A stretch of 64,000 bases of DNA from Naegleria gruberi (Eukaryota). Positions 28,368 to 59,100 of the stretch are shown piece after piece. The DNA lies in NCBI GenBank assembly GCA_000004985.1, contig GG738858.1; one strand, written 5' to 3'. The notes under the pieces were generated by a model. It worked only from the letters and a program-made list of their open reading frames with translations, was not told where the DNA came from and ran no database searches. The stretch's first letter is position 1. Each line of letters begins with the position of its first letter. A program made the position numbers and the translations under genes.

Positions 28368-29093
28368 ATGGCCAGTGAGCACTATTCGAATGGTAGCAAC
28401 TCGTCCTCTTCACCAAGAAGTAATGAAGAGTTTCGTCTAGTTTCTCCAACAGACAGTTCCAGTGCGTGGACTATTGAAGGACGAAATGAACAAGTTTCTC
28501 CGAATCTTGTTGGTAACAAGATTAAAAAACCTCGTCGTTTGAGAAAGCAAATTAACAATGATCACTTTAAACAATTTTACTTTGAGTTGAAAGTAAACGA
28601 ATCGAATAGGAAAAAAGAAGGTAATTGTCAAGGAATGAATAGTCAACATGTAGATTCTACTGCAGCTTCTGATAAAAGTGGTTCTTCTTCATCTGTTTCG
28701 TCTGGTAAATTGAAACGAAAGGAATCTTATGAAATTCTACAATTCGAAACTGCGCAGGAGAAGGATGAAGAAACTTTATATCAAGAAAGAATCAAGAATG
28801 AAATTAAAGCAAATTCTCATCACTTTTGTCTTCCCTCTAATAAGAAAAAGAAGACAAATGCCAAACATCAACAAGACATCAATCAATCTGTAAATAATCA
28901 AGAAGAAGAAATACTTCAACCATGTAATAATATTCCTGTAATCTATCAACCACCAATCAATCCAATTGTATTCAATGAGCCTAATGTTAATCCTGTCCAA
29001 TTTACTGAACCTGTCACTAATCAAATAAGCATTGATAATGCTGAACTATTGAGTTTAATTCTACAGCTACTCACCAATAATAATAATAAATGA
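28368..29093 (+). CDS. member 1 of a lineage-specific family with conserved motif KKPRRLRKQINNDHFKQFYFEL
   Basis: Intronless 241-aa ORF. The N-terminus is S-rich, followed by a basic NLS-like K(K)P(K/R)RLRKQ motif and then FK(Q/K)FYFEL. A second shared block is EIKANSHHFCLPSNKKKK. The C-terminus is Q/N/P-rich. Paralogs lie at 30085..30765 and 36304..36993. Confidence 0.6.
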   Translation: MASEHYSNGSNSSSSPRSNEEFRLVSPTDSSSAWTIEGRNEQVSPNLVGNKIKKPRRLRKQINNDHFKQFYFELKVNESNRKKEGNCQGMNSQHVDSTAASDKSGSSSSVSSGKLKRKESYEILQFETAQEKDEETLYQERIKNEIKANSHHFCLPSNKKKKTNAKHQQDINQSVNNQEEEILQPCNNIPVIYQPPINPIVFNEPNVNPVQFTEPVTNQISIDNAELLSLILQLLTNNNNK

Positions 29094-30084
29094 TGGACTA
29101 TTCAATAGATTGTTCACGACCTTTTATTTTAGGTAACAACAGCTAAAATAAATAAAAACCCATAAAAGTTTCCAATAATCATTTAACAAGAAAGAAATGA
29201 CATTATTTTAAGTTATATTAATTTCTAAAATCTGAATGTAAAGAGAGGGTAAGGTGAAAGTCCTCAAATTCTCCTCAAACATCCTCCTTGCTATTTGACG
29301 AAACCTTATTCGAAACCTATTCCTTCATTCACTGCAACTTTTAGGTTCATCAAATGTACAGTTAAACTACAGTCTGAATAACTATTACTCTTATCATCAA
29401 CAAAGGAGAAATGGATAACACCTTGGATTAAAAATTGCCAATTTCGAACAAGGACCGGGCAAAATATTTTCAGTTAACTAGCAAAACGAAGATTAAATGG
29501 GACAAATACTTGGATTAGTGCAAAATCAATGATAATGGCAAATTTAATGTCCATTTCGCCTTTTCTTTAAGAATGTGCTTTCCTTTCAACAGCTGTCACA
29601 TTTGAAGAAACTGTCAACTGCCTCCTTAATTTCTCAAACAGCAAAACAACAAAAACATGCAAACAAACAATACACGCACACATGATGTTATACATTGTGA
29701 ACCACCAACCGTAACTCATTCCAAACACAATGCACCTACCCTAAATTGGCAAACCATCGAATCATGGACTTGTTCAAATTGGCATCATTTGCTAGATCAA
29801 TAATTGGTATCAATATTCAAATATTCAAAAAGACAATTGTTAAAATGAATGGTTCCGAGAATGTCAATACTCAAATGCCAAATTAAATCCTATCAAGACT
29901 TGAAGGCCTCTTTGTGACAATCTTTCTTGAATTGTTAATGTTTTTCCAACGATAATTCTGCATGTTGCTTGAATCGCACCAAGGTCGTAACAAGCCGTAA
30001 AACAAATCTTTTTTGGCTCGTTAGAATATTCTTGTGGGAAACTGAACGAAACGTTTTGGAAGAAACAAAGAAAAAAAAGGGTCC

Positions 30085-30765
30085 ATGTCACCTCCCAGAG
30101 AAACTCCACAACAACAACTTCACAACAATGATTCTTCTGTTAGAGCATCATCACCAAACTCTTCCAGTAGTTCTGACACATCTGCCACAAATCAAAACAT
30201 CATTAAGAAACCAAAACGTTTACGAAAACAATTAAATAATCGAGAATTTAAAAAGTTTTACTTTGAATTAGTGCCAAATAATTCGAATTCTGGTGAGGAA
30301 CCAAGTTTTTCCATTCCACAAGATTCGTATCAGGTTAAAAAATTCGAAACTTCACATTCGAATGGTGATGAGGAAATAAGGAATGCTATCAAAGCACATT
30401 CTTCACATTTCTATTTACATTCAAAGAAAACAAAGAAAAATTCACCTTCTTCTTCATCTGGTTCTGGGGCTGTCACATGTAAAGAGCCATCACAACATAC
30501 ATGTCAAATAATTCAAAATGACAATCAACAAGTACATGCCACAACTTCTACATCATGTACTTCAATACAACAACAACAAAATCAACATGTTTCTTTATTG
30601 GATTCTTTGGTTGTCAAGAGACAGAGTTTACAGAACTCGCATGTCAATGATACATATATGGACTCTGAATTAATGTTAAATCTTGATTATGATGATATTA
30701 TAGACCAATTATGTAATGTTAATTCACCATATTATCAGACCTTTAAACATTTCAATGTCAAATGA
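30085..30765 (+). CDS. member 2 of the PKRLRKQL...FYFEL family
   Basis: 226-aa intronless ORF with IKKPKRLRKQLNNREFKKFYFELVPNNSN ... KKFETSHSNGDEE ... AIKAHSSHFYLHSKKTKK. It shares the order and spacing of motifs with 28368..29093 and 36304..36993. Confidence 0.6.
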   Translation: MSPPRETPQQQLHNNDSSVRASSPNSSSSSDTSATNQNIIKKPKRLRKQLNNREFKKFYFELVPNNSNSGEEPSFSIPQDSYQVKKFETSHSNGDEEIRNAIKAHSSHFYLHSKKTKKNSPSSSSGSGAVTCKEPSQHTCQIIQNDNQQVHATTSTSCTSIQQQQNQHVSLLDSLVVKRQSLQNSHVNDTYMDSELMLNLDYDDIIDQLCNVNSPYYQTFKHFNVK

Positions 30766-30803
30766 TTGCTGACATGAATATTGTTGACATGAGTTCAGTA
30801 ACT

Positions 30804-33234
30804 TTATTTAGATATTTGTTCCAAATGGTTAATGATACAATCTCTGGTTAATTTACCCATCAACCTTCCTTTCCAAACTACAAAAACCTCATTAAGAGAA
30901 AGTTGTGAAAATAACATGTGAGATTGTTGGATTGGTTGACCTTCTGAAATTGTAAATTCACAACTTTCGTATTCAATTTCAATGATTTCTTCATCCATTT
31001 CTTCTAGTGGAATGTCAGAAAGTTGAGAGGCAGAAAGAGGGAGTTCACCATTTTTTGCTTGCTTTCGATTTAATTTCATTTCTAATAAAATTTCAATATT
31101 CGAAAGAGAAACTTGACCCAATAATAATAAATTATTCAAATTTTCAACCATTGGAATCTTATCTTTGGGACTGTAATTTGCCAATTGACATTCTTTTACA
31201 ACTTTTTGTAAATCTTTCAATTTCATTTTAGTTTCCAAAATTGGTAATCCCTGATCCAAATTAATCATCAAATTTGAAGCTTTCAAATCAACAGAATCAG
31301 ATACGTTCTCCAATAAAGCTTTCCAATTCTTTGCTCTAATTACAATATCATAAACACTACTTGTGAAAGCTCTGGAAACTTGCACTGAAATGAGAGCAAC
31401 CATTAGACAAGGTAAATGAACAGCAACTCCAATCATTTCTAGAAAGATAAATACTGTTGAGAAGGTATGTGTTGTGGATGATGTGAGTGAGACTATTCCA
31501 ATAACTGCATAGGCGCCAGGTTTGATGAGTTGACCTGCCACAAATCCATTTGGAAAAATGACAGCAACTATTTCACCAAAGAATCGACCAAATCCTGCTC
31601 CTATTAATATAATGGGAATGTAGAGACCTCCAGGTAGTTGAAGAGATAGAGTGAAAAGTGTCAAACAAAATTTGACAACTAGGTAAATTGACAAGCTCAC
31701 AAACACATCATTTGGAGAATTGATAATCCATCCCTGATCTGTAGATAGAGAATTAGGTGATAATAATGCTTCCAATGTTTCACTCACTGATAATGACATG
31801 TATTTCCCAATCAAATTTGGAAATGTCAAAATGCCAGTAATTATACAAATGAATAATGTCCACAATGCTTGATTATTAAACAAGGCAGTAGCTCTATACT
31901 GTTCCAACTTTTCACTTTTGAAAAATAGAAAGTTTTTTCCATAGTTTAATCTCAATCTCATAACTAAACTTGTTAAATATAAGAAACAAACTCCAACTAA
32001 ACCCATCAGAAATCCAAGGATTGCATGAGCTATGAGTTCTGGAATGGAAAATGATGGATATGGTAGTTTAAAGTGCCAAGTCATGGACACGTTGAGATTA
32101 AGCCCAATGAGAGAATCGAATAATCGAGAGACGAAAGATGCAATAATTGCAACATAGAAACTCTTCAAATATCCTCTCAAACTGTAATAGGTACAGATAG
32201 CTTCGAGTGCAAATAGGACACTACCACCTGGTGTTGCAAAATTAGCACCAACACCCAAAGCCTTTCCAAAATTAGAAATTTTACAAAAATTTAAAAATTT
32301 AAAAAATTTAAAAAATATAAAAAAAATTAAAACTTACACATCCACAAGCAATCATTTGATCCCTCAAAGCTTTCACCTTTTTAATAGGTCTAAATATAGG
32401 TAATCTCATCATATTATATGTCAATAATGCACCAACATGAGCTGACGATCCAACATCACCCAAAAACATTCCACTTCCCAAAACCATTGGCAATGCAACA
32501 ATTTTCACTAAAAATGTTCTAAATCCAAATGCTCCTTTAATATTTGCACCATTCAACATTGCCTTAACAAGTGAAATTCCAGAACCTTCCGAATATGGAC
32601 CAAACAGAACTACAAGAATTAAGGAAATGGTCACGAAAAACAAACTATAAATCACCCATAGGAATAATCTCAATCCAAAATATTCCTTCTCATCGAATTG
32701 ATTTATAATTGTCAACCTTCCTCTGTACATGTACAAAACTATCAAGTCATGACAGTAAATGATAATTCCACCCAAAATTCCACAAATTGTTAGAAAGGTC
32801 CAAACATATTTCTTATTGAGAAAGTGTTTCTTCCAATGCATGGTTTCTACATAGCTCACTGTTGCTGCATGTTTGACAGTTTGTAGCATGAATTTGACAT
32901 CCATTGGATTGTCATTGATTTCTGACGTGTTACTATATGATTTAACAGTTTCAACAGAGTTATTAGGAATGTATTTGATATGTGATGATAGACTTGGTGA
33001 GAAATCATCAAAATGTATTTCTTTTTCATGAAAGTTTCCGATAGTTTTTGGTGGAATTGAATTATTCGATTCTTTCAGAGTTTCCTCTGCGTTTGTTGTA
33101 GTTTCATTTGTTGTATTTGGTTGATCCAACGGTTGCTCATCACCAACATTGCTTGCCACAGCATCATTTGCTGCCAAATCTTGTGACATTTTTTTATGGT
33201 GGTAGGCAGTGGCATATCCTAATATGGATGACAA
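30804..33234 (-). CDS. CLC-family voltage-gated chloride channel/transporter with C-terminal CBS domains, 2 exons
   Basis: join(33234..32338,32261..30804); the intron is 32337..32262, with a GTAAGT donor and a GGAAAG acceptor. Exon 1 contains GSGMFLGDVGSSAHVGA, resembling the CLC selectivity motif GKEGP. Exon 2 contains GVGANFATPGGSVLFALE, resembling GxFxP. It has multiple TM helices and C-terminal CBS-like repeats. An alternative start is at the internal ATG at 33189. Confidence 0.8.
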
Positions 33235-33707
33235 GTGGATTTACAGATTCTCACAATATTTTTATATTTCCTTACCTTGCCTCCTTGAATATACCTCAAT
33301 GTCATTTGCATCAAATTCTGTAAAACCACCTCAACTTAAAAACTGTAAATTGCTCCAATTGTTCTTTTGACTTTGACTCGACAAGAAACATCAATTTTCT
33401 TTCACTTCCAAATGGAAAGCACTCGATTATTATCATACAGCACTTTAAAACCCTTCATGTACGATCTCAATTAAAACAATCAGCCATCCAACTGTTATCA
33501 AACTCTCAACTGAGCATTGTGTGAAAAATATCTTTTTTCTGAACCACTCAATAGTCCACTGTATTGCATTCCACTCAATTGCACAGCCATCCAAGTGGTA
33601 GGCAACTAGCTGATCTAAAGTAACTGCTTTCTTGTTATTTGTGTGAAAAAAAACAACGCGCAGAAATCAAAAGGTTCATCAATTTGTGTTGAAAATTAAA
33701 AAAAAAA

Positions 33708-35785
33708 ATGTCATCCTTTAAAAAGTCGTACGATATTATTATTGCAGGTAGGTTCTATTGTGTGTGCGTGATGGAGATAATCATGTAATATATATTGGTT
33801 GGTGATGATTGATCTTGTGATGGAAAAATTTGTGTGAAAATTTTATGTGAAATTTATGTGTGATGATCGGTGCAATTATTTGATCAAAAATTATTAAAAT
33901 ATTTGCATCAATAAAGGTGGAGGTCATAATGGACTTGCATGTGCTGCCAAGTTGAAGAAAACAATGCCATCATTATCAATTTGTGTTTTAGAAAAGAGAC
34001 ATGTGACTGGTGGATGTGCAATTTCTGAAGAAATGGAGCCAGGATTTAAATTTTCACGTGCTTCTTATTTATTTAGTTTGTTTAGACCACATATTATGGA
34101 TGACTTGGATTTGAGAAGAAGATTGAAATTACTTCCTAGAAATCCTTCTTCTTTTACTCCAACTTTGGAAAAAGATCAATATCTATTTATGGGAAGTGAT
34201 TCTGAAATGAATTTTAGAGAAATTTCTAAATTTTCAAAGAAGGATGCAAAGAATATGGAACTTTATGAAAAGCAATTGCAAAGAGTTGCAGGAGCTGTTG
34301 AGAAATTATTAGATTGTGGTCCAATTGACTTGGGTATTGATGAAGATGCAACCACAAGGGATATTCTTTTTGATAGAGAAAGTGGTATCATTGGTAACAA
34401 GGAAAATAGAGAAAGAATGAGGAAATTAGTTGAAGCTGGTCGTGAATTGGGTCTTTCCAATATTAACACTGCATTTGATGTTTTCACAAGTCCAGCAACT
34501 AAAATTTTGGATCACTGGTTTGAAAGTGACATTTTGAAAGCTACTCTTGCAACTGATGCTATTATTGGTGAATATTGCTCACCAAATACACCAGGTAGTT
34601 CCTATGTTTTGTTGCATCACGTTATGGGGTAAGTTTTCACGCAAAAATTGAGTTTTATTAATTGTTGAATGAAATATTTAATCAACATTTGTAGTGATAT
34701 TGGTTTTGGAAAGGGTATTTGGGCCTATGTTGAAGGAGGAATGGGTTCTGTCACTCGTCATTTGACTGATATCAATAAGGAGCTTGGTGTTGACGTGTTC
34801 ACAAATGCAAATATTAAACAATTCACATTCAACCATTCAAGCAAACGATGCACAGGTGTAGTCCTTGAAGATGGTACTGAAATCCTTGCCAACAAGGCTG
34901 TGGCCAGTAATTGTGATCCTCACACAACATTCAGAAAGGTAAGTCAACAACTCTTGTCAATTTGGAAATATTAATCATGACCCAATTTGAAAATCTCCAT
35001 TATTATGGTTGTTTTCTGTCAAATCAATCACACAGATGGTTACAGAATCGGATTTATTGGCAACATATGGAGAAGATTTTGCCAGGAAGGTCGATAATAT
35101 TGATTATTCTAGTGCCACATTCAAGATTAATCTTGCAGTTAATGCATTGCCACAGTTTAAATGTTTCTCCTCACCAAAGAGTGAAAGAAAGTCGAATGGA
35201 GCTGGTAAAGAACACTTTGGTACCATTCACTTTGAAACAAGTATTCAAGAGATTGAGGATTCATATATTCAAGCTAAATCCTCAAAATTATACTCCAGTA
35301 ATCCAGTTATTGAAATGACCATTCCTAGCAGTTTGGATAGTACTCTTGTTAAAGATCCAAATCATCATGTCATTCAGTTATTTACACAATATGCTCCATA
35401 TGATTTGAAGGAAGGTTTCACATGGGATGAAAAATTAAAGAGAGAATATGTCAATAAGGTTTATGATAAGATTGAAAGTTATGCTCCAGGTTTTAAGAAT
35501 TCAATTATTGCTGAAGATTTATTATCACCTCTCGATTTGGAAAAGACATTTGGAATTAAGGGAGGTAATATCTTCCATGGTTCCATTCGTTTGGATCAAT
35601 TGTATTTGAATAGACCTTTCAGAGGTTTCTCAAATTATCGTTACTTTAGTAAGAAACATGGTGTTGGTGTCAGTAACTTATTCTCATGCTCTTCTGGAAT
35701 GCATCCAGGTGGTGGTGTAATGGCTGGTCCTGGATATAACTGTGCTCATTCAATCATTTCTTCTCTCGCCAATTCTTCCCTCTAA
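33708..35785 (+). CDS. PYROXD2-like FAD-dependent oxidoreductase (pyridine nucleotide-disulfide oxidoreductase domain 2), 4 exons, 581 aa
   Basis: join(33708..33747,33917..34628,34695..34938,35036..35785). The Rossmann motif YDIIIAG|GGHNGLACAAKL is split by intron 1. There are long near-collinear matches to human PYROXD2 (FKFSRASYL, LLHHVMGG, VVLEDGTE, CIPSSLDPTL, VYAPGFK, GGNIFH...LDQLY, HPGGGVM). The spliced length of 581 aa equals that of the human protein. Confidence 0.85.
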
Positions 35786-36303
35786 AAGGTGTGATTCATG
35801 TCTTGAATGCTGCTATTCTGAGCACACATCATTGCACAAATGAGAAATTTCTATTATAATAAAAACATTGTAATTACCATCCTTCGAGTGAAAGCATCCT
35901 AATTTGAAATAAGGCGTTTGCTAACATCCTATTAGTTACCGAAATATTGGCACATATCAAATTTCTTTACACGTGCTGATTTAAATCTCCAAAGAGAATG
36001 CAAAATGTCAGCAACTGTCAATTGGATTGGAATTTAGCCATTGGTCTAGTATTCAACCGGTGAACATATTCGAAAACTGGCGAAACCCTTATCGACTTTC
36101 AACAATAAAATAAGGGAGTATAACCTCAATATCATGACGGACAGGGATGTTTTTGGCAGGTAACAAGCTCAGGAATTTCTTGGCAATATTATTTTACAAA
36201 TATGGCCACATTTAAAGCAAAAGCAGTCAACAAGCCGAAACCAATAAATTCGGCAGGATGCACATGTTAAAAATCTTTTCAAAAAAACAAAACAACATTC
36301 AAA

Positions 36304-36993
36304 ATGTCCTTCAATATGATGTTTGTTCAACATAACCATCCTAAAGGATGCTCAAAAGGCAAAAAGACATTTCACCCAAAACGTTTGAGAAAACAACTCG
36401 ACACTGCAGAATTCAAGCAATTCTACTTTGAACTGGTACCAAGCATTAATAATAATGCAACAAGCTCCACAACAACTCTATTAAAAAGAGAACCAGATGC
36501 AAATTCAGATTCAGACCAATACAAGCTCATGAGTTTTCAATGTGAAGCATCTGAACAGGAGAAGATGAGAAGAGCCATTCATCAATGTTCCTCTCATTTT
36601 CATGTGGCATCCTACATGCATCATAGTAAGAGAAAGAAATTGAAGAGCAATACATGTGTTGATTTAACATGTTCCTCTCCAATTGCATCGACTGCATCTA
36701 GTGATATTTCCACTATTTTCTCTCATCATTCGTCCTCTAATTCAACAAATTCTGTGATTCAGAACAAGTCTGTTTCATTTACCTCCCTACAATCGAATAT
36801 TATTATCATTTCCAATCAAACTAATTCCATTGCAACACAGCAAACTAGTTCCTCTCCTTCAAATTGCTCTTCTGGATTTATGCTCTCATTAGATTATGAG
36901 TCAATAACTGATTTGTTGCTGGATGAAAACTCTCCTTTTAACAATCTCTTGAAAGCCCCAATATTCGAAAGACAAACATTGAATAAATTGTAA
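36304..36993 (+). CDS. member 3 of the PKRLRKQL...FYFEL family
   Basis: 229-aa intronless ORF with FHPKRLRKQLDTAEFKQFYFELVPSINNN ... AIHQCSSHFHVASYMHHSKRKK, followed by an S/T-rich tail. Confidence 0.6.
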   Translation: MSFNMMFVQHNHPKGCSKGKKTFHPKRLRKQLDTAEFKQFYFELVPSINNNATSSTTTLLKREPDANSDSDQYKLMSFQCEASEQEKMRRAIHQCSSHFHVASYMHHSKRKKLKSNTCVDLTCSSPIASTASSDISTIFSHHSSSNSTNSVIQNKSVSFTSLQSNIIIISNQTNSIATQQTSSSPSNCSSGFMLSLDYESITDLLLDENSPFNNLLKAPIFERQTLNKL

Positions 36994-53195: not shown

Positions 53196-56100
53196 TTAAT
53201 TAACTAGTCCTATCGGAACATAGCAAACCAAACCATAAATACCTCCATCAGGAGTAGTAGTAGCCCACCAACCATATGTTGGATAAGATCCCATAAAGTA
53301 AGCATAGGTAATACTATCACCAGATGCTGGATAATAACTACTGTACCAATCCTTATAGACAATGGTACTTCCATCGGACCAAGTTGTGAAGGAGCCTTGG
53401 GAAATTTCATGTCCCTTAGTACCTAAGAAGAAGGCATTGGTTTCATTCTTTGGAAGGAGATTGTTGGCTAAGAATGTCTTTTCTGTGGCACTTTGAATTT
53501 GGACCAATGAAGCGTTTGGATGGAAATACTTGCACAAACTACTCATTGATTCAACGGCATAATAGTTTTGAAGTTTGGTAAAGTAATAACATCTTCCCAA
53601 TGATGTACTACAGCTCATCTTTCTATACCATGGATAATCAACCATGTTGACCTTTGGAGGTAGAGTTGAAGGAGCAGTAATGATACCTGATGGACCTGTA
53701 ATTGTTCCTTGAGAATATTGAGAACCACCAGCAAGGCCAAATTTGATAATACCTTCTGGAATGTCTCCTGCAATCTTGAGTGTGTAAATCTTGTAGGAAC
53801 CTGGTGCAATAGTGTATGAGCTAGGCAATGACAAGTAGGTGAAACCAGTGAGTCCAGTAATTTGATCAGCACCAATGTAAACAGGGAAGCTTGGTGAATA
53901 ATCATGGAAGGCATCTTGGTTGTATCCTGCTTGTAATTCGAGAGTGAATCTAGTAAGTGCAGGTGATCCAGTAGCAACACTAATATTGTATGTGAAAACA
54001 GTAACTGGAGAGGAAGCGTTCAAGAATGTGGCAGTAGAAGAGGTCTTACCCAAATATTTAACAGAGTAACCACTGCTAGCTAATGGAACGAGTACATTGG
54101 TCTTGGATGTGTCAACAATATTACATGAGTTATCAATAATGGTTTGGTAAATGTTACTCAAATCGTTCCAATTTACCAAGACAAGATTATTTTGATCATA
54201 GTTCATCTTTTGTACTTGAATTTGACCATAACTATCCGTTACAGCAGAGCCTATTCCGATAGCAAGCTGTCTCCAATTCCAAACTGAGCCATAGAGTGAC
54301 ATTTCAGCATTATTAGAGCCACCAATTGACCAAGAGTTAATATCAACTGATCTAACAGTGGCATCAGAACATGGATTACAACGAGATCTATCATCATACC
54401 ACGAGCAAACAGTACAATCTGCGCCTGGGAAGCGAGGGCTCTTACAATAGGATGGGGAAACACCATAGTTTCCAGGATTTGATGAATAGGTTGATCTACA
54501 GCTACCACAAGAGCATGGGTCATTTGAGAGACCATCAGTAATGTGAATCAATAACTTTTGAGAAATTGACTTTCTACCAGAGGCCAACATCATATTAACT
54601 GCAGTATTAATACCTGAAATTGAGTTGGTACCAGATTGAATTTGGGCCATATTCTTGATGGCAGTTAAAACACTAGATTGACTTGTACCAGACTTCAAAT
54701 CCAAGTGAGTTGTAATAGTTGAGGCAAATTGAATAATACCAATGTTTGTTCCAGTTGGAGAGATGTTTGATCCAAAGCCTGTTGTCAAATTGGAAGCAAA
54801 GTTCTTCATGTTAACAAAGTTATCAGCTGTAATACTTCCAGAACCGTCAATAACAAATATGATATCCAAGTTAAGACCGCATTGACACTTGGTGTATTGA
54901 ACTGAGACAACAGCTGATGCTGAGGTACCATCTTGATCTGATTGGATACTGTAAACAAACTTTTGAGTATTACAACTTCCAGTAACTGGATAAACTCTGA
55001 TAATTCTATTGTTGGCAGGATCGGCTGGGTTGAGGATGGCTGGAGTGCCTGATGTACAATATGAGGAATCACCTGATGGACAAGAAATTCCAGTGAAAGT
55101 GAATGTACCACCAAGAGAATCATAGTCATTGCTCAACAAACTTGATACAGAGATATCAATATAGGTATTGAATTGTGTTGATACAAAGTCATTGACAGCA
55201 ACAGGAGGAGAAGCAAGAGCTGAAATTCCAACTTGAACATTCTTAGTAATTGGATTTCTTGCATCAGAATCAGAAACAGCTAAAACAAAGTTACAACTTC
55301 CAAGGAATGTTGCTACTCTCAAAAACTTGACTTGATTGCTGGCAATTGTCAAGGATTGAAGAACGGTGCTATTACAAGTTCCAACATCTGCAATACTCTT
55401 CAAAACTAGAGTGTCTGCAGTGTCGGCATCCTTTGAAGATGAGAGAGAAATATAATCAAATGAAATATAATTATTACTAGCTCTAGAAATTGAATAGACA
55501 TAAGTGTAAGCATTCAAGGTTGGAGCTTGATTAGGTTGAGCAATAATAATCTTACAAATGGCAGTTTGTCCAGCAGTGTTTGTCAAAGAATAGGAAGCAT
55601 AACAATCACTATTTGATGATGAGGTACTTGCTGGAGTGTATGTCAATTTACCAGTAGAGGATGAGATGGAACCAACACCATTAAGAGTAGCAGTGTTAGT
55701 GATAGCCATTGTGACTGGTTCAGAACCAACCTTTGCTGTTAAACTTGTCTTTAAAGCATCTTCAAATTGAGTAGCAGCAGAATTCTTTGTAGTGGAAATT
55801 GTGTAATCAAGACATCCGAAAGAATTACCAGTGATTGTAACAGTGTAAGTGTAGGTTGAAGTTAATTGACCATCAGTCAAGGTGAAAGAGAATTGCAAAG
55901 TTCCCAAATAAGTAGTAGCATAAGTAAGCTTTACAGATCCATCAGAGTTCAACAAGACAGAGGCACCAGTGTTTTGAGTAATCATACTAACACTTGAAAC
56001 AGTAACTGTATCACCATCAGCATCACTTGCACCTGTCAATAGATCAGTGAAAGTATAAGTTGGATTGGAATAACTTCTTTCAATGGTGGTAGTCTTTGCA

Positions 56101-59100
56101 CTTCCAGTTGGAGGTGTATTTCTAATGACTACAGACATGGTAGCATAAGTTGCAACTTGAGCACCATCATAACAACTAAACTTAATGGAGTCTGTAACAT
56201 ATCGTGTTCCATTAGAAAGAGTGGTTGTGTAAGAAATTGAGGAGCTTGGTGTGTAAACAAGAGATCCAGTAGTGTAATCCGAAACAGTTGTTGTACCATA
56301 TGAACCTTGACCAACTCCAAACAAAGACAATGAATCGCTATCAGCATCATAACAGTATTGAGAAACAACATTTGTCAAAGACAAAGTGTTCTTCCAACCA
56401 ATAGTTTTAGAGAATGAAGTAGCTTGAGGAGCAGTATTGGTAAAAACAAGGTTAACAGTGGCAATATTAGAGGTGGCAATTTGATCAGTAATGGTGTATT
56501 GGAATGAATCAGTACCTGGACCATTAATGAAGGTATTCATATAGAAAACAGTTACCAAATCACTTTGTAAAACAAGGGCGGTATTACCTGTTGGCAATTG
56601 AGCACTACCAAAGTTAACATTATTCAAATTCAAAGAATTAGAACCCAAACTCATGATAACACCATACATGTTAACAACATTGAAGTTAAGTTGACCATAG
56701 GTAAGGACATGTCCATAGAATGTACCTTGAATACCTGCAGCGCCAACAATCCAGAAAACGTTCAAGTAACTAGCACCATTCTTGAAACTCCAACTAAAGT
56801 TAGCATTCAAATTTGTGGTGGCAACAAAGATAAAAAGACCACTTCCACTCAATTCAATTTTACCATTTCCATTGAGACCTTGAGAGAAACAATATACACC
56901 TGGAGTAAATGACAAAACACCTGAAGATGGGAAGTTTTGATCAAGAGAGGCAACACAAGACTTTTGTGAAAGATATTGGTAGAGATTTGAGGCAGATGTA
57001 ACAACAGATGAGTAGGCAGCGTTGTTGACACTCAAAGTACCAGTTGGTTTAAGAGCTTGAGCAGTGAAACCAGCAGTGGCAACGCTTCCAGGAACAACCA
57101 AATTGGCAAAGTTATTACAAATGGTTGAACCCTTAGAAATAACAATGTAATCTCCGATACCATTGTATGAACTGACTAAGCTTGATGGATATAACTTGTT
57201 AATATAAATATAATCACCATCAACATCATAATCGTTCAAAACAGGTTTCAAATACAAGGTATTATTGGTCCAGTGTTGAGTGAATGTATTATCAACAGCA
57301 ACAGGAGGAGTATTAGTAATGGTAATGGTAACAGTATTGGTAACACTTGAGAAACCATCAGTTACAACATAGGTGAATGAAGTAGTGAACCCAGCAGTTA
57401 GAGGAACTGGTGTGTACTTGACAAAAGTGGAATTAACAGAAGCAACAGCACCAGTATTTGGTTGAGTGAATGAAACAATGGTCAATGAATCACCATCAGC
57501 ATCAGTAACTCCAGACATCAAATCAATACTGAGGCCACTTTGAACCTTAGCCCAGTGACGACTGAATGTTAATGGAGTTGCTGTAGGAGCGCTATTGGAA
57601 ATAGTAACAAAGATTCCCTTTGATGCAGAAACTCCCATTCCATCAGTTACAGTATAGTTGAAGAATTGTGATGCAGAGTTTCCATTAGAATTGGTGAATG
57701 TGAATGATTTCTTGTCACCACTCAAAGCAACAGTACCTGCACTTGGATTAGTGAATGATGAAATAACAAGATAGTCTCCATCCTCAGTATCAGCATCAGT
57801 TGGCTTGAGAGAATCAGCTCTACCAATAACTGGAATAGAAATTGAGGAAGTGTGACCAGATACAACAATATCTTTAGCAACTGGAAGATTGTTATAGATA
57901 ACAATGCTGAATGTTGCACTTGAAGTGGACCACCCATCAGTGAATGAAACAGTAACGGAATCAGTACCAGTGTAAGCACTATTGACCTTATAGTTAATGG
58001 TGTTTCCTGAACCAAGAGAAGCAACACCAACCAGTGTCTTTGTGACAGCAGTTAAGGTAACAGCATCACCATCAGCATCCTTAAGATAGGAAGAAAGATC
58101 AATAACAGTATTACTCAAAACAGTTCTCCAGTGATATTTGAAAGCTGCAGTAGTATTGGCTGTTGGAACACTATTCAAAATTGTAATGGAAACAGTACCA
58201 GTGACTGTATCTCTTCCATCAGTGATAATATAACTGATTGGGTTGATACTACCAACAAAACCACTGGAAGGAGTGAATTTTACATTTCCAGAGCAAGTGA
58301 CACTACCTTGAGCTGCAGTAACAGATGAAGAGCATGATTGTAATGATAATGAATCTCCATTAGCATCTGAAGAAGCAGAAACAACTTCAAATGTTAAACC
58401 ATTCTTAGCTGAAGACCAAGAACCGACAAATGATTGTGAATTTGTTGTTGGAGCAGTATTGGTAACAGTAACAGTAACAGTTGATGTTGAAGTGGCAATC
58501 TCATCAGTGATTGTATAGTATACAGTATCTGTAGATGGAGCAGTTCTTGGATAGTAAGTAATGTTGGTTGAGGTAAATGTTGGTGACAAAGGAGCTAATG
58601 AACCATAAACATTAGTAACTCTCAATGGATCAGACTCAGCATCAGTATCGTTAGCAACAACATTCAAAGTGTAAGAAGCAACGTTCCAGTGAGTAGTGAG
58701 CTTATCTGGAACAGCTACTGGGGCAGTATTGTAAACAATCAAGTTGACAGTTGTGGTAACTTGACCGTTTGAAGCACCATCAGTAACAATGTACTTGAAT
58801 GAAAGTGAACCCACAAAGTTTCCAGAACCAAGGATTTTGACAGACTTGCTATCCAAAACAGTTACGGAACCAACACTTGGTTGAGAAGCAATTGAAACCA
58901 AACTCAATGAGTCGCCATCAGTATCATAATCAGCTGGAGCATAATTTAAGATATCAATTTCAATACCTGCCTTGAAAGTTCTCCATGGAACTGAAATAGT
59001 CTTGGTTTGAGAAGTTGGAGCGTTGTTTACAACAGTTACAGAGATTGAACTAGTTGAGCTCTTCATAGAGTCAGAAACTCTGTAGTTAGCAGTGTAAACA

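What the first reader, a model, noticed from the sequence alone, without database searches (positions are those of the whole stretch)
28368..36993. Novel three-gene family sharing the motif (K)KP(K/R)RLRKQ(L/I)xxxxFK(Q/K)FYFEL and a second H(S/Q)(S/C)SHF block
Three intronless genes (28368..29093, 30085..30765, 36304..36993) on the same strand within 8.6 kb encode 226-241-aa proteins. The conserved core of about 25 aa looks like a basic NLS followed by an aromatic FYFEL element. Each also has a conserved AI(K/H)(A/Q)(H/C)SSHF(Y/H) block, then basic KKxKK, then divergent S/T/Q/N-rich tails. I recognise no known domain. The family may be small nuclear regulators, tandemly amplified and interrupted by unrelated genes (CLC, PYROXD2).
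Basis: seen in the sequence. Interest (0 to 1): 0.6.

Follow-up and report, generated by a model that had tools for sequence, protein, structure and literature searches.

The report
Naegleria-only family of small modular proteins
Three small intronless genes in this Naegleria gruberi window belong to a real, selectively conserved protein family found only in the genus Naegleria; it matches no known domain, its function is untested (a nuclear regulator is only a guess), and this makes it a fairly ordinary orphan gene family.

Summary
Three + strand ORFs (28368..29093, 30085..30765, 36304..36993; 241, 226 and 229 aa) share four short blocks. These are P-[KR]-RLRKQ-[LI]-x4-FK-[QK]-FYFEL, Y-x-[VIL]-x2-F, I-x3-S-x-HF-x-[LV] followed by a basic cluster, and a C-terminal acidic amphipathic helix. 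Pairwise BLASTP E-values are 9e-9 to 6e-20.

The window is Naegleria gruberi. Gene 1 is NAEGRDRAFT_47703, a "predicted protein". I found no database protein model for genes 2 and 3.

The genes are under selection. Against a syntenic orthologue with saturated synonymous sites, the core has dN 0.18 and the C-terminal motif 0.22, both lower than the neighbouring CLC channel (0.29). The S/T/Q/N-rich linker evolves neutrally.

Structure prediction is low-confidence and inconsistent, so the proteins look largely disordered, with conserved docking motifs.

The "small nuclear regulator" reading remains plausible. Five of six members match the NLS pattern twice, and the C-terminus looks like an activation helix. 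None of this is tested. The family is older and larger than a three-gene tandem amplification. Interest is modest.

The parts
28368..29093 (+). Gene 1 (241 aa), subfamily A. It is NAEGRDRAFT_47703 / XP_002679209.1 / D2V9I3, annotated 'predicted protein'.
   Evidence: ORF; exact match to the NCBI/UniProt entry; profile hit 1.0e-35.
28527..28589 (+). Gene 1 block 1, KPRRLRKQINNDHFKQFYFEL (aa 54-74). It overlaps a K[KR]x[KR] NLS-pattern match.
28725..28853 (+). Gene 1 block 2 (SYEILQFE, aa 120-127), block 3 (IKNEIKANSHHFCL, aa 142-155) and basic cluster KKKK (aa 159-162).
29046..29084 (+). Gene 1 C-terminal hydrophobic LLSLILQLLTNNN (aa 227-239). This is the subfamily-A version of the C-terminal helix; compare N. 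fowleri LLYLLFTLLTTSN.
30085..30765 (+). Gene 2 (226 aa), subfamily B. No protein model for it was found in the databases searched.
   Evidence: ORF; exact sequence absent from the 15-billion-protein collection. A strain variant (L002) and a syntenic orthologue (L007, 52% aa identity) show purifying selection on the core and C-terminus.
30208..30270 (+). Gene 2 block 1, KPKRLRKQLNNREFKKFYFEL (aa 42-62).
   Evidence: core dN 0.18 against saturated dS
30325..30438 (+). Gene 2 block 2 (SYQVKKFE, aa 81-88), block 3 (IRNAIKAHSSHFYL, aa 98-111) and basic cluster KKTKK (aa 114-118).
   Evidence: AF2 run 1 predicts strand 82-89 and helix 92-108, pLDDT 60-74.
30670..30762 (+). Gene 2 C-terminal motif, LMLNLDYDDIIDQLCNVNSPYYQTFKHFNVK (aa 196-226). 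It is acidic and amphipathic.
   Evidence: Highest-confidence part of the AF2 model (helices 202-209 and 217-224, pLDDT 75-78); dN 0.22; net charge -5 over the last 40 aa.
36304..36993 (+). Gene 3 (229 aa), subfamily B. No protein model for it was found in the databases searched.
   Evidence: ORF; exact sequence absent from the collection. The strain variant P0001/L001 is 99% identical at DNA level.
36373..36435 (+). Gene 3 block 1, HPKRLRKQLDTAEFKQFYFEL (aa 24-44).
   Evidence: strain substitutions in the core are all synonymous
36517..36642 (+). Gene 3 block 2 (QYKLMSFQ, aa 72-79), block 3 (MRRAIHQCSSHFHV, aa 88-101) and basic cluster KRKKL (aa 109-113).
36877..36939 (+). Gene 3 C-terminal motif, FMLSLDYESITDLLLDENSPF (aa 192-212).
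   Evidence: the only strain substitution here is synonymous

Best explanation
The three ORFs are functional, intronless protein-coding genes. They belong to a taxonomically restricted (genus Naegleria) family of small, mostly disordered, modular proteins.

Shown here:
- Each protein is a string of four short conserved blocks separated by fast-evolving, low-complexity S/T/N/Q-rich spacers.
- The blocks are a basic-aromatic N-terminal block (P-[KR]-x-LRKQ-[LI]-x4-FK-x-x-YF); a short Y-x-[VIL]-x2-F element; an I-x3-[SL]-x-HF element followed in most members by a lysine cluster; and a C-terminal acidic amphipathic helix.
- Two old subfamilies exist. Subfamily A is gene 1 plus N. fowleri FDP41_010410. 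Subfamily B is genes 2 and 3, NAEGRDRAFT_74017/76618 and the soil Naegleria orthologues.
- The local cluster arose by ancient dispersed duplication.

Inferred, not shown:
- The proteins are imported into the nucleus through the two K[KR]x[KR] basic clusters.
- They act as adaptor or cofactor-type regulators. Blocks 1-3 would dock onto a partner or nucleic acid, possibly folding on binding. The C-terminal acidic hydrophobic-x-x-LL helix would recruit a second partner, as acidic activation domains or LxxLL motifs do.
For: Family and significance:
- Pairwise E-values are 9e-9 to 6e-20. Profile hits run from 1e-76 to 8e-8 and are confined to Naegleria, out of 1.84e9 representatives.

Coding and constraint:
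- Gene 2 was compared with its syntenic orthologue in L007, where the CLC neighbour is retained.
- Core: dN 0.18 with pS 0.68, omega about 0.1. C-terminus: dN 0.22. Linker: omega about 1.2.
- The neighbouring CLC channel has dN 0.29 and omega 0.26.
- Within-species variants of gene 3 show 4 synonymous changes, all in the core or C-terminal motif, and 5 non-synonymous changes, all in the linker. Indels are in frame.
- The intergenic DNA upstream of gene 2 carries 26 substitutions and frame-breaking indels in 911 nt. The first 364 coding nt carry 3 substitutions and one in-frame indel.

Disorder and modularity:
- 39-51% of residues are S/T/N/Q/P/G.
- AF2 mean pLDDT is 49 and 62, with pTM about 0.2. 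The best-predicted part is the C-terminal helices, at 75-78.

Nuclear reading:
- Five of six members have two K[KR]x[KR] matches at conserved positions. C-termini have net charge -1 to -5 with [ILF]xxLL-type spacing.

No alternative domain identity was found.
Against: - There is no experimental or expression evidence. No paper or supplementary table that I could search mentions these genes.
- NLS-pattern matches are common in lysine-rich proteins. The paralogue NAEGRDRAFT_74017/76618 has neither match.
- The strict invariance of L, Q and the aromatic residues in block 1 is not explained by NLS function.
- The two AF2 runs disagree on block 1: a strand and a helix. Whether blocks 1-3 form a domain or are linear motifs is therefore open.
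- Acidic amphipathic C-termini also occur in many non-nuclear proteins.
- No N. fowleri member of subfamily B was found among database protein models, so the family may be dispensable or patchy.
Confidence: 0.4

Rival explanations
1. Blocks 1-3 form a small, novel folded nucleic-acid-binding domain: a basic N-terminal arm, a beta-hairpin with a variable loop, and an alpha-helix. On this reading the proteins are Naegleria-specific sequence-specific transcription factors with an acidic C-terminal activation helix.
For: - AF2 run 1 predicts strands at 58-64 and 82-89 plus a helix at 92-108, at pLDDT 60-74.
- The hydrophobic periodicity of the invariant residues fits strand, strand, helix.
- The core is more constrained than the neighbouring CLC channel.
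- Basic clusters flank the core on both sides.
Against: - AF2 run 2, on the core alone with 9 sequences, gives a different topology with two helices, pTM 0.21.
- The loop between blocks 1 and 2 ranges from about 17 to about 75 residues.
- hhalign against a bHLH profile gives probability 0.1%.
- No DNA-binding Pfam family appears even at E <= 10.
Confidence: 0.15
2. They are cytoplasmic adaptor proteins built from short linear motifs. For example, the subfamily-B C-terminal D-Y-x-x-I could be an Atg8/LC3-interacting (LIR-type) or other trafficking motif, and the basic clusters could bind membranes or RNA rather than importin.
For: - LDY[DEN]x[I] fits the core aromatic-x-x-aliphatic LIR pattern with an upstream acidic residue in all subfamily-B members.
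- The proteins are largely disordered.
Against: - Subfamily A lacks the DYxxI element but keeps the hydrophobic LL helix.
- Such four-residue patterns are frequent by chance.
- No other feature points to autophagy or trafficking.
Confidence: 0.1
3. They are unstable cell-cycle or differentiation-stage regulators whose block 1 is a degron or docking site. The invariant R-K-Q-[LI] would be a D-box-like RxxL recognised by APC/C, and the conserved S-P after the C-terminal helix would be a CDK/MAPK site.
For: - R-x-x-[LI] is invariant in all members.
- N-S-P-[YF] is conserved in subfamily B.
- Small disordered proteins with basic clusters are typical of such regulators (general knowledge).
Against: - Half the members have I instead of the canonical L at D-box position 4.
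- No KEN or ABBA motifs are present.
- No match to the CDI or securin families appears in Pfam at E <= 10.
- This is pure pattern matching.
Confidence: 0.07
4. The ORFs are non-functional chance or decaying reading frames. Genes 2 and 3 have no protein model in the databases searched.
For: - Genes 2 and 3 have no exact protein model in the 15-billion-protein collection.
- A related copy in a metagenome contig (L006) has a block-1 region broken by a stop codon and a frame change.
Against: - ORF boundaries are conserved in an orthologue at saturated dS, with omega about 0.1 in the core.
- Strain polymorphisms are partitioned: synonymous in the blocks, non-synonymous in the linker. Indels are in frame.
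- Family members are retained in N. fowleri.
Confidence: 0.03

Closest known systems
NAEGRDRAFT_74017 / NAEGRDRAFT_76618 (N. gruberi) and FDP41_010410 (N. fowleri), uncharacterised 'predicted/hypothetical proteins'
   Same: True homologues. They share blocks 1-3 and the C-terminal helix, with profile E-values of 8e-8 and 6e-16 against 1.84e9 proteins.
   Different: - They lie on other scaffolds. The N. fowleri locus shares no synteny with the window.
- The 181-aa paralogue lacks both lysine clusters.
- The N. fowleri protein is 486 aa, with much longer low-complexity spacers.
- None has a described function.
Plant VQ-motif proteins and similar small cofactors defined by a short motif (analogy from general knowledge, not homology)
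   Same: Both are small, typically intronless, largely disordered and lineage-restricted. Both are defined by a short invariant motif in otherwise fast-evolving sequence, carry basic NLS-like clusters, and are expanded by duplication.
   Different: There is no sequence similarity. The VQ motif FxxhVQxhTG is absent. No binding partner equivalent to WRKY is known here. The resemblance is in architecture only and was not tested.
Acidic activation domains and LxxLL / hydrophobic-x-x-hydrophobic-hydrophobic coactivator-binding helices (general knowledge)
   Same: The C-terminal 20-30 residues are net acidic, are predicted helical with the highest pLDDT in the protein, and carry [ILF]xxLL spacing in four of six members.
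   Different: This is a pattern-level resemblance only. Gene 2 and its orthologue have IIDQL/IIEQL rather than xxLL. No activation assay has been done.
bHLH transcription factors (basic region, helix, variable loop, helix)
   Same: The order of elements is superficially alike: a basic stretch, a hydrophobic segment ending in V-P, a variable loop and a helix. AF2 run 2 drew two helices.
   Different: The profile-profile comparison fails: hhalign probability 0.1%, with 6 aligned columns. The conserved E-R-x-R-R of the bHLH basic region is absent. Pfam HLH is not hit at E <= 10. It is not a member.

Membership tests
The Naegleria family itself (as defined here) | Block 1: P-x-[KR]-LRKQ-[LI]-x4-FK-x-x-YF near the N-terminus. 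| tested here: met
   Present in all three window genes and in the N. fowleri, NAEGRDRAFT_74017/76618 and soil orthologues. P, L, R, K, Q, F, K, Y and F are invariant.
The Naegleria family itself (as defined here) | Block 2 (Y-x-[VILM]-x2-F) and block 3 (I-x3-[SL]-x-HF-x-[LV]) in that order after a variable loop, plus a C-terminal amphipathic L-rich helix. | tested here: met
   Y, F, I, H and F are invariant across 7 sequences, and the C-terminal L is invariant.
Any Pfam-A family (24,736 models, including HLH, Myb, AP2, HMG, CDI and securin) | A score at or above the gathering threshold, or at least a consistent sub-threshold hit across members. | tested here: not met
   No hit reaches its cut-off. 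The best is NGF, 23.3 bits against a cut-off of 27, in one member only. No family is hit by more than 2 of 6 members at E <= 10.
Any protein with a solved structure (PDB) | Sequence-profile or fold similarity. | tested here: not met
bHLH | Profile similarity to the basic-helix-loop-helix domain. | tested here: not met
Classical importin-alpha cargo (monopartite NLS) | A K-[KR]-x-[KR] basic cluster that is functional in import. | tested here: inconclusive
   The pattern occurs twice, at conserved positions, in 5 of 6 members and is absent in NAEGRDRAFT_74017/76618. Import itself cannot be tested with these tools.
Virus-derived or horizontally transferred gene | Relatives in viral, bacterial or archaeal sequence, or atypical composition. 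| tested here: not met
   No relative in IMG/VR viral contigs or among 1.84e9 proteins outside Naegleria. GC is 0.33-0.35, like its surroundings.
Expressed gene (transcript or protein evidence) | RNA-seq, EST or proteomic support. | not testable with these tools
   No expression data were reachable, and supplement searches found no mention. Selection analyses stand in as indirect evidence.

The most novel reading that the evidence does not exclude
Blocks 1-3 constitute a previously unseen mini DNA- or RNA-binding or partner-docking module. The family would then be a Naegleria-invented set of transcription regulators, for example controlling the amoeba-flagellate-cyst transitions, with two members still missing from the gene catalogue.
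Probability: 0.12. Interest if true: 0.55.

Novelty: new member of a known kind. Interest (0 to 1): 0.27.

Why it matters
If the inferred role is right, these would be genus-specific nuclear regulators in an organism whose transcriptional control is almost uncharacterised. That includes the rapid amoeba-to-flagellate switch, and the pathogen N. fowleri is a close relative.

There are practical gains whatever the function turns out to be:
- Two conserved, selected genes (30085..30765 and 36304..36993) have no protein model in the databases searched and could be added to the N. gruberi annotation.
- The family now has a definition: four blocks and two subfamilies. That definition can be used to annotate other Naegleria genomes.

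Otherwise this is one of many taxonomically restricted families in a protist genome, and it changes no general picture.

Tried and rejected
- **Known domain.** Pfam on full-length proteins and on low-complexity-trimmed mini-proteins at E <= 10 gave only scattered, inconsistent sub-threshold hits: NGF, KdpC, YggL, POP1_N. A PDB sequence-profile search gave a best E of 0.15.
- **bHLH.** I suspected it from the basic / hydrophobic-VP / loop / helix order. hhalign probability was 0.1%, so I rejected it.
- **Viral or horizontal origin.** There were no relatives in viral contigs or JGI metagenome contigs.
- **More members via the word-indexed search.** Low-complexity words swamped the first search. 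Trimmed profiles added only strain variants and P0009.
- **Synteny with N. fowleri.** tblastx of L003 against the window found nothing at 1e-8.
- **Shared promoter motif.** One 9-mer, TATTCGAAA, lies upstream of all three genes at variable distance, against 0.1 expected. This is too weak to use.
- **Expression evidence.** Locus tags appear in no searchable full text or held supplement. A motif-string search returned only irrelevant papers.
- **Reference gene models.** Gene models around the reference locus could not be retrieved, because N. gruberi proteins are not in the gene-position index.
- **Known short motifs, checked by eye.** I compared the blocks with the PIP box, RxL cyclin docking, RVxF, LxxIxE, FFAT, SxIP, and D-box with KEN. 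None fits across the family apart from the minimal Rxx[LI].
Full report
**Observation.** A three-way alignment shows 33 invariant columns. These include P-x-RLRKQ, F-K-x-FYFEL and S-x-HF. Pairwise BLASTP E-values are 2e-14, 6e-20 and 9e-9. A six-frame motif scan finds no further copy in the window.

One is a short [SQ]Y-x-[VIL]-x2-F block between the two reported blocks. The other is a conserved C-terminal motif: LML[SN]LDY[DE]xIxDxLxxxNSP[YF] in genes 2 and 3, and a shortened LLSLILQLLT in gene 1.

The genes in between are as described. A voltage-gated CLC channel lies on the minus strand in two exons. A CrtI-like FAD oxidoreductase, consistent with PYROXD2, is also there. A queuosine-salvage gene follows gene 3.

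**Organism and annotation status.** Gene 1 is identical to Naegleria gruberi NAEGRDRAFT_47703 (XP_002679209.1, UniProt D2V9I3, "predicted protein"), on a 782-kb scaffold. The window's 30-38% GC fits this organism.

The exact products of genes 2 and 3 are not in the 15-billion-protein collection. The only clusters at 90% identity or more that contain them come from metagenome assemblies. I infer that the reference annotation has no model for them. I could not retrieve the gene models around the locus to check this directly.

**Family extent.** A profile of the core region was scored by HMMER against 1.84 billion representative proteins. Six proteins had E <= 1e-3:
- strain variants of genes 3 and 2 (P0001 and P0004, from sample ERR1078381);
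- gene 1 itself;
- a soil or metagenome Naegleria orthologue of gene 2 (P0003, with its full-length form P0005);
- N. fowleri FDP41_010410 (P0006, 486 aa, E = 5.6e-16);
- N. gruberi NAEGRDRAFT_76618, with its near-duplicate NAEGRDRAFT_74017 (P0007 and P0008, 181 aa, E = 8.4e-8).

A trimmed profile covering the core plus the C-terminal motif added only P0009. Nothing was found in IMG/VR viral contigs or JGI metagenome contigs.

The seven-sequence alignment keeps P, L-R-K-Q, F-K, Y-F, Y, F, I, H-F and one C-terminal L invariant. It resolves two subfamilies:
- Subfamily A is gene 1 plus the N. fowleri protein. The C-terminus is LL-x-L-x(2-3)-LLT.
- Subfamily B is genes 2 and 3, P0005 and P0007/8/9. 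The C-terminus is LMLxLDYxxIxxLxxxxSPYY.

The N. fowleri locus shares no synteny with the window.

**Are they real genes?** Yes. Contig L007 comes from another Naegleria species. It carries the gene 2 orthologue (52% aa identity), immediately followed by the CLC orthologue on the opposite strand, as in the window. The start and stop positions of the ORF coincide.

Nei-Gojobori counts for gene 2 against this orthologue and for the neighbouring CLC last exon as a benchmark:

| Region | dN | Synonymous sites | omega |
|---|---|---|---|
| Gene 2 core, aa 39-118 | 0.18 | pS 0.68, saturated | about 0.1 |
| Gene 2 C-terminal 29 residues | 0.22 | pS 0.81, saturated | not computable |
| Gene 2 linker, aa 119-197 | 1.10 | dS 0.88 | about 1.2 |
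| CLC last exon | 0.29 | dS 1.11 | 0.26 |

The family's blocks are therefore at least as constrained as a conserved channel.

Within the species, L001 is 99% identical to the window over 3.8 kb. The nine substitutions in gene 3 split cleanly. Four are synonymous and lie in the core or the C-terminal motif. Five are non-synonymous and lie in the linker. There is also one in-frame 3-nt insertion.

For gene 2, the 911 nt of upstream intergenic DNA carry 26 substitutions and about nine indels, mostly frame-breaking. The first 364 coding nt carry three substitutions and one in-frame indel. The pseudogene reading is rejected.

**Is it a known domain?** No.
- Pfam at E <= 10 gives no hit above a gathering threshold and no family shared by more than two of six members.
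- A profile search of all PDB sequences gives a best E of 0.15.
- AlphaFold2 on full-length gene 2, with a 6-sequence alignment, gives mean pLDDT 49. It draws a tentative hairpin (58-64 and 82-89) plus a helix (92-108) at pLDDT 60-74. The most confident elements are two short C-terminal helices, at 75-78.
- A second run on the core alone, with 9 sequences, gives pLDDT 62 and pTM 0.21, and draws two helices instead.
- A bHLH-like order of elements prompted a profile-profile test. It failed at probability 0.1%.
- No paper in the library mentions the locus tags or the motif strings.

**Mechanism (inferred).** The proteins are 39-51% S/T/N/Q/P/G. They have no signal peptide and no transmembrane-length hydrophobic segment.

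Five of six members have two K[KR]x[KR] matches at conserved positions: one inside block 1 and one just after block 3. The C-terminal 40 residues have net charge -1 to -5, and four of six members show [ILF]xxLL-type spacing there.

The most economical reading is a nuclear, largely disordered adaptor or cofactor. Its conserved blocks would be docking surfaces, with the C-terminal helix acting like an acidic activation or LxxLL-type recruitment motif.

Block 1 cannot be only an NLS. Its invariant positions are L, Q and aromatic residues at fixed spacing. The 181-aa paralogue keeps these while losing the lysine pattern.

The rivals cannot be excluded with these tools. They are a novel small nucleic-acid-binding fold, cytoplasmic motif-based adaptors (the DYxxI element is LIR-like), and a degron-bearing cell-cycle regulator (a minimal Rxx[LI]). 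My confidence in the nuclear-regulator reading is about 0.4. My confidence that this is a real, Naegleria-restricted, selected protein family is above 0.9.

**Evolutionary picture.** Paralogues are 27-35% identical, whereas gene 2 and its orthologue are 52% identical at saturated dS. Subfamily A has an N. fowleri member. The duplications therefore predate Naegleria speciation events. The cluster is an old, dispersed local duplication interleaved with unrelated genes, not a recent tandem amplification.

**Verdict.** The family is undescribed but is a typical taxonomically restricted orphan family. Its value lies mainly in annotation: two genes with no protein model found, and a usable family definition. 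It is also a modest lead to Naegleria-specific regulators. Interest is 0.27.

Noticed in passing
window 53196..63965 (- strand): A giant uninterrupted ORF of at least 3589 aa, with 16 bacterial Ig (Big_9) repeats, bacterial cadherin-like domains (Cadherin_4/5) and a VWA domain. It lies in the part of the window with the highest GC (0.37-0.385, against 0.30-0.35 elsewhere). It may be a bacterial-type adhesin gene acquired by Naegleria.
   Followed up: partly
L006 930..1484 (metagenome contig from sample ERR1078381): A further family member (P0009) is only 72% identical to NAEGRDRAFT_74017/76618 from aa 45 onward. Its block-1 region is interrupted by a TAG stop and a frame change, with a degenerate RLIKKQIE*MDF in one frame and VKKFMSWFLEN in another. 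It may be a decaying or N-terminally truncated extra paralogue, or it may contain introns.
   Followed up: partly
window 30085..30765 and 36304..36993: Genes 2 and 3 have no exact protein entry in the 15-billion-protein collection, whereas gene 1 does (NAEGRDRAFT_47703). They are probably missing from the N. gruberi reference annotation despite clear purifying selection.
   Followed up: partly
window 30766..30803: Gene 2 and the convergent CLC gene end only 38 nt apart, stop to stop (19 nt in the orthologous contig L007). Their 3' UTRs and terminators must overlap or be extremely short.
   Followed up: no
window 32259..32332: An AT-only 9-nt tandem repeat (AAATTTAAA, about 6-7 copies, 32268..32332) fills the short gap between the two CLC reading frames (32258 and 32308). 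This gap is presumably a very small AT-rich intron.
   Followed up: no
window 27826, 29307 and 36067 (upstream of genes 1, 2 and 3): The 9-mer TATTCGAAA occurs once upstream of each of the three family genes, at -542, -778 and -237. About 0.1 shared 9-mers are expected from shuffles. This is too weak to call a regulatory element.
   Followed up: partly
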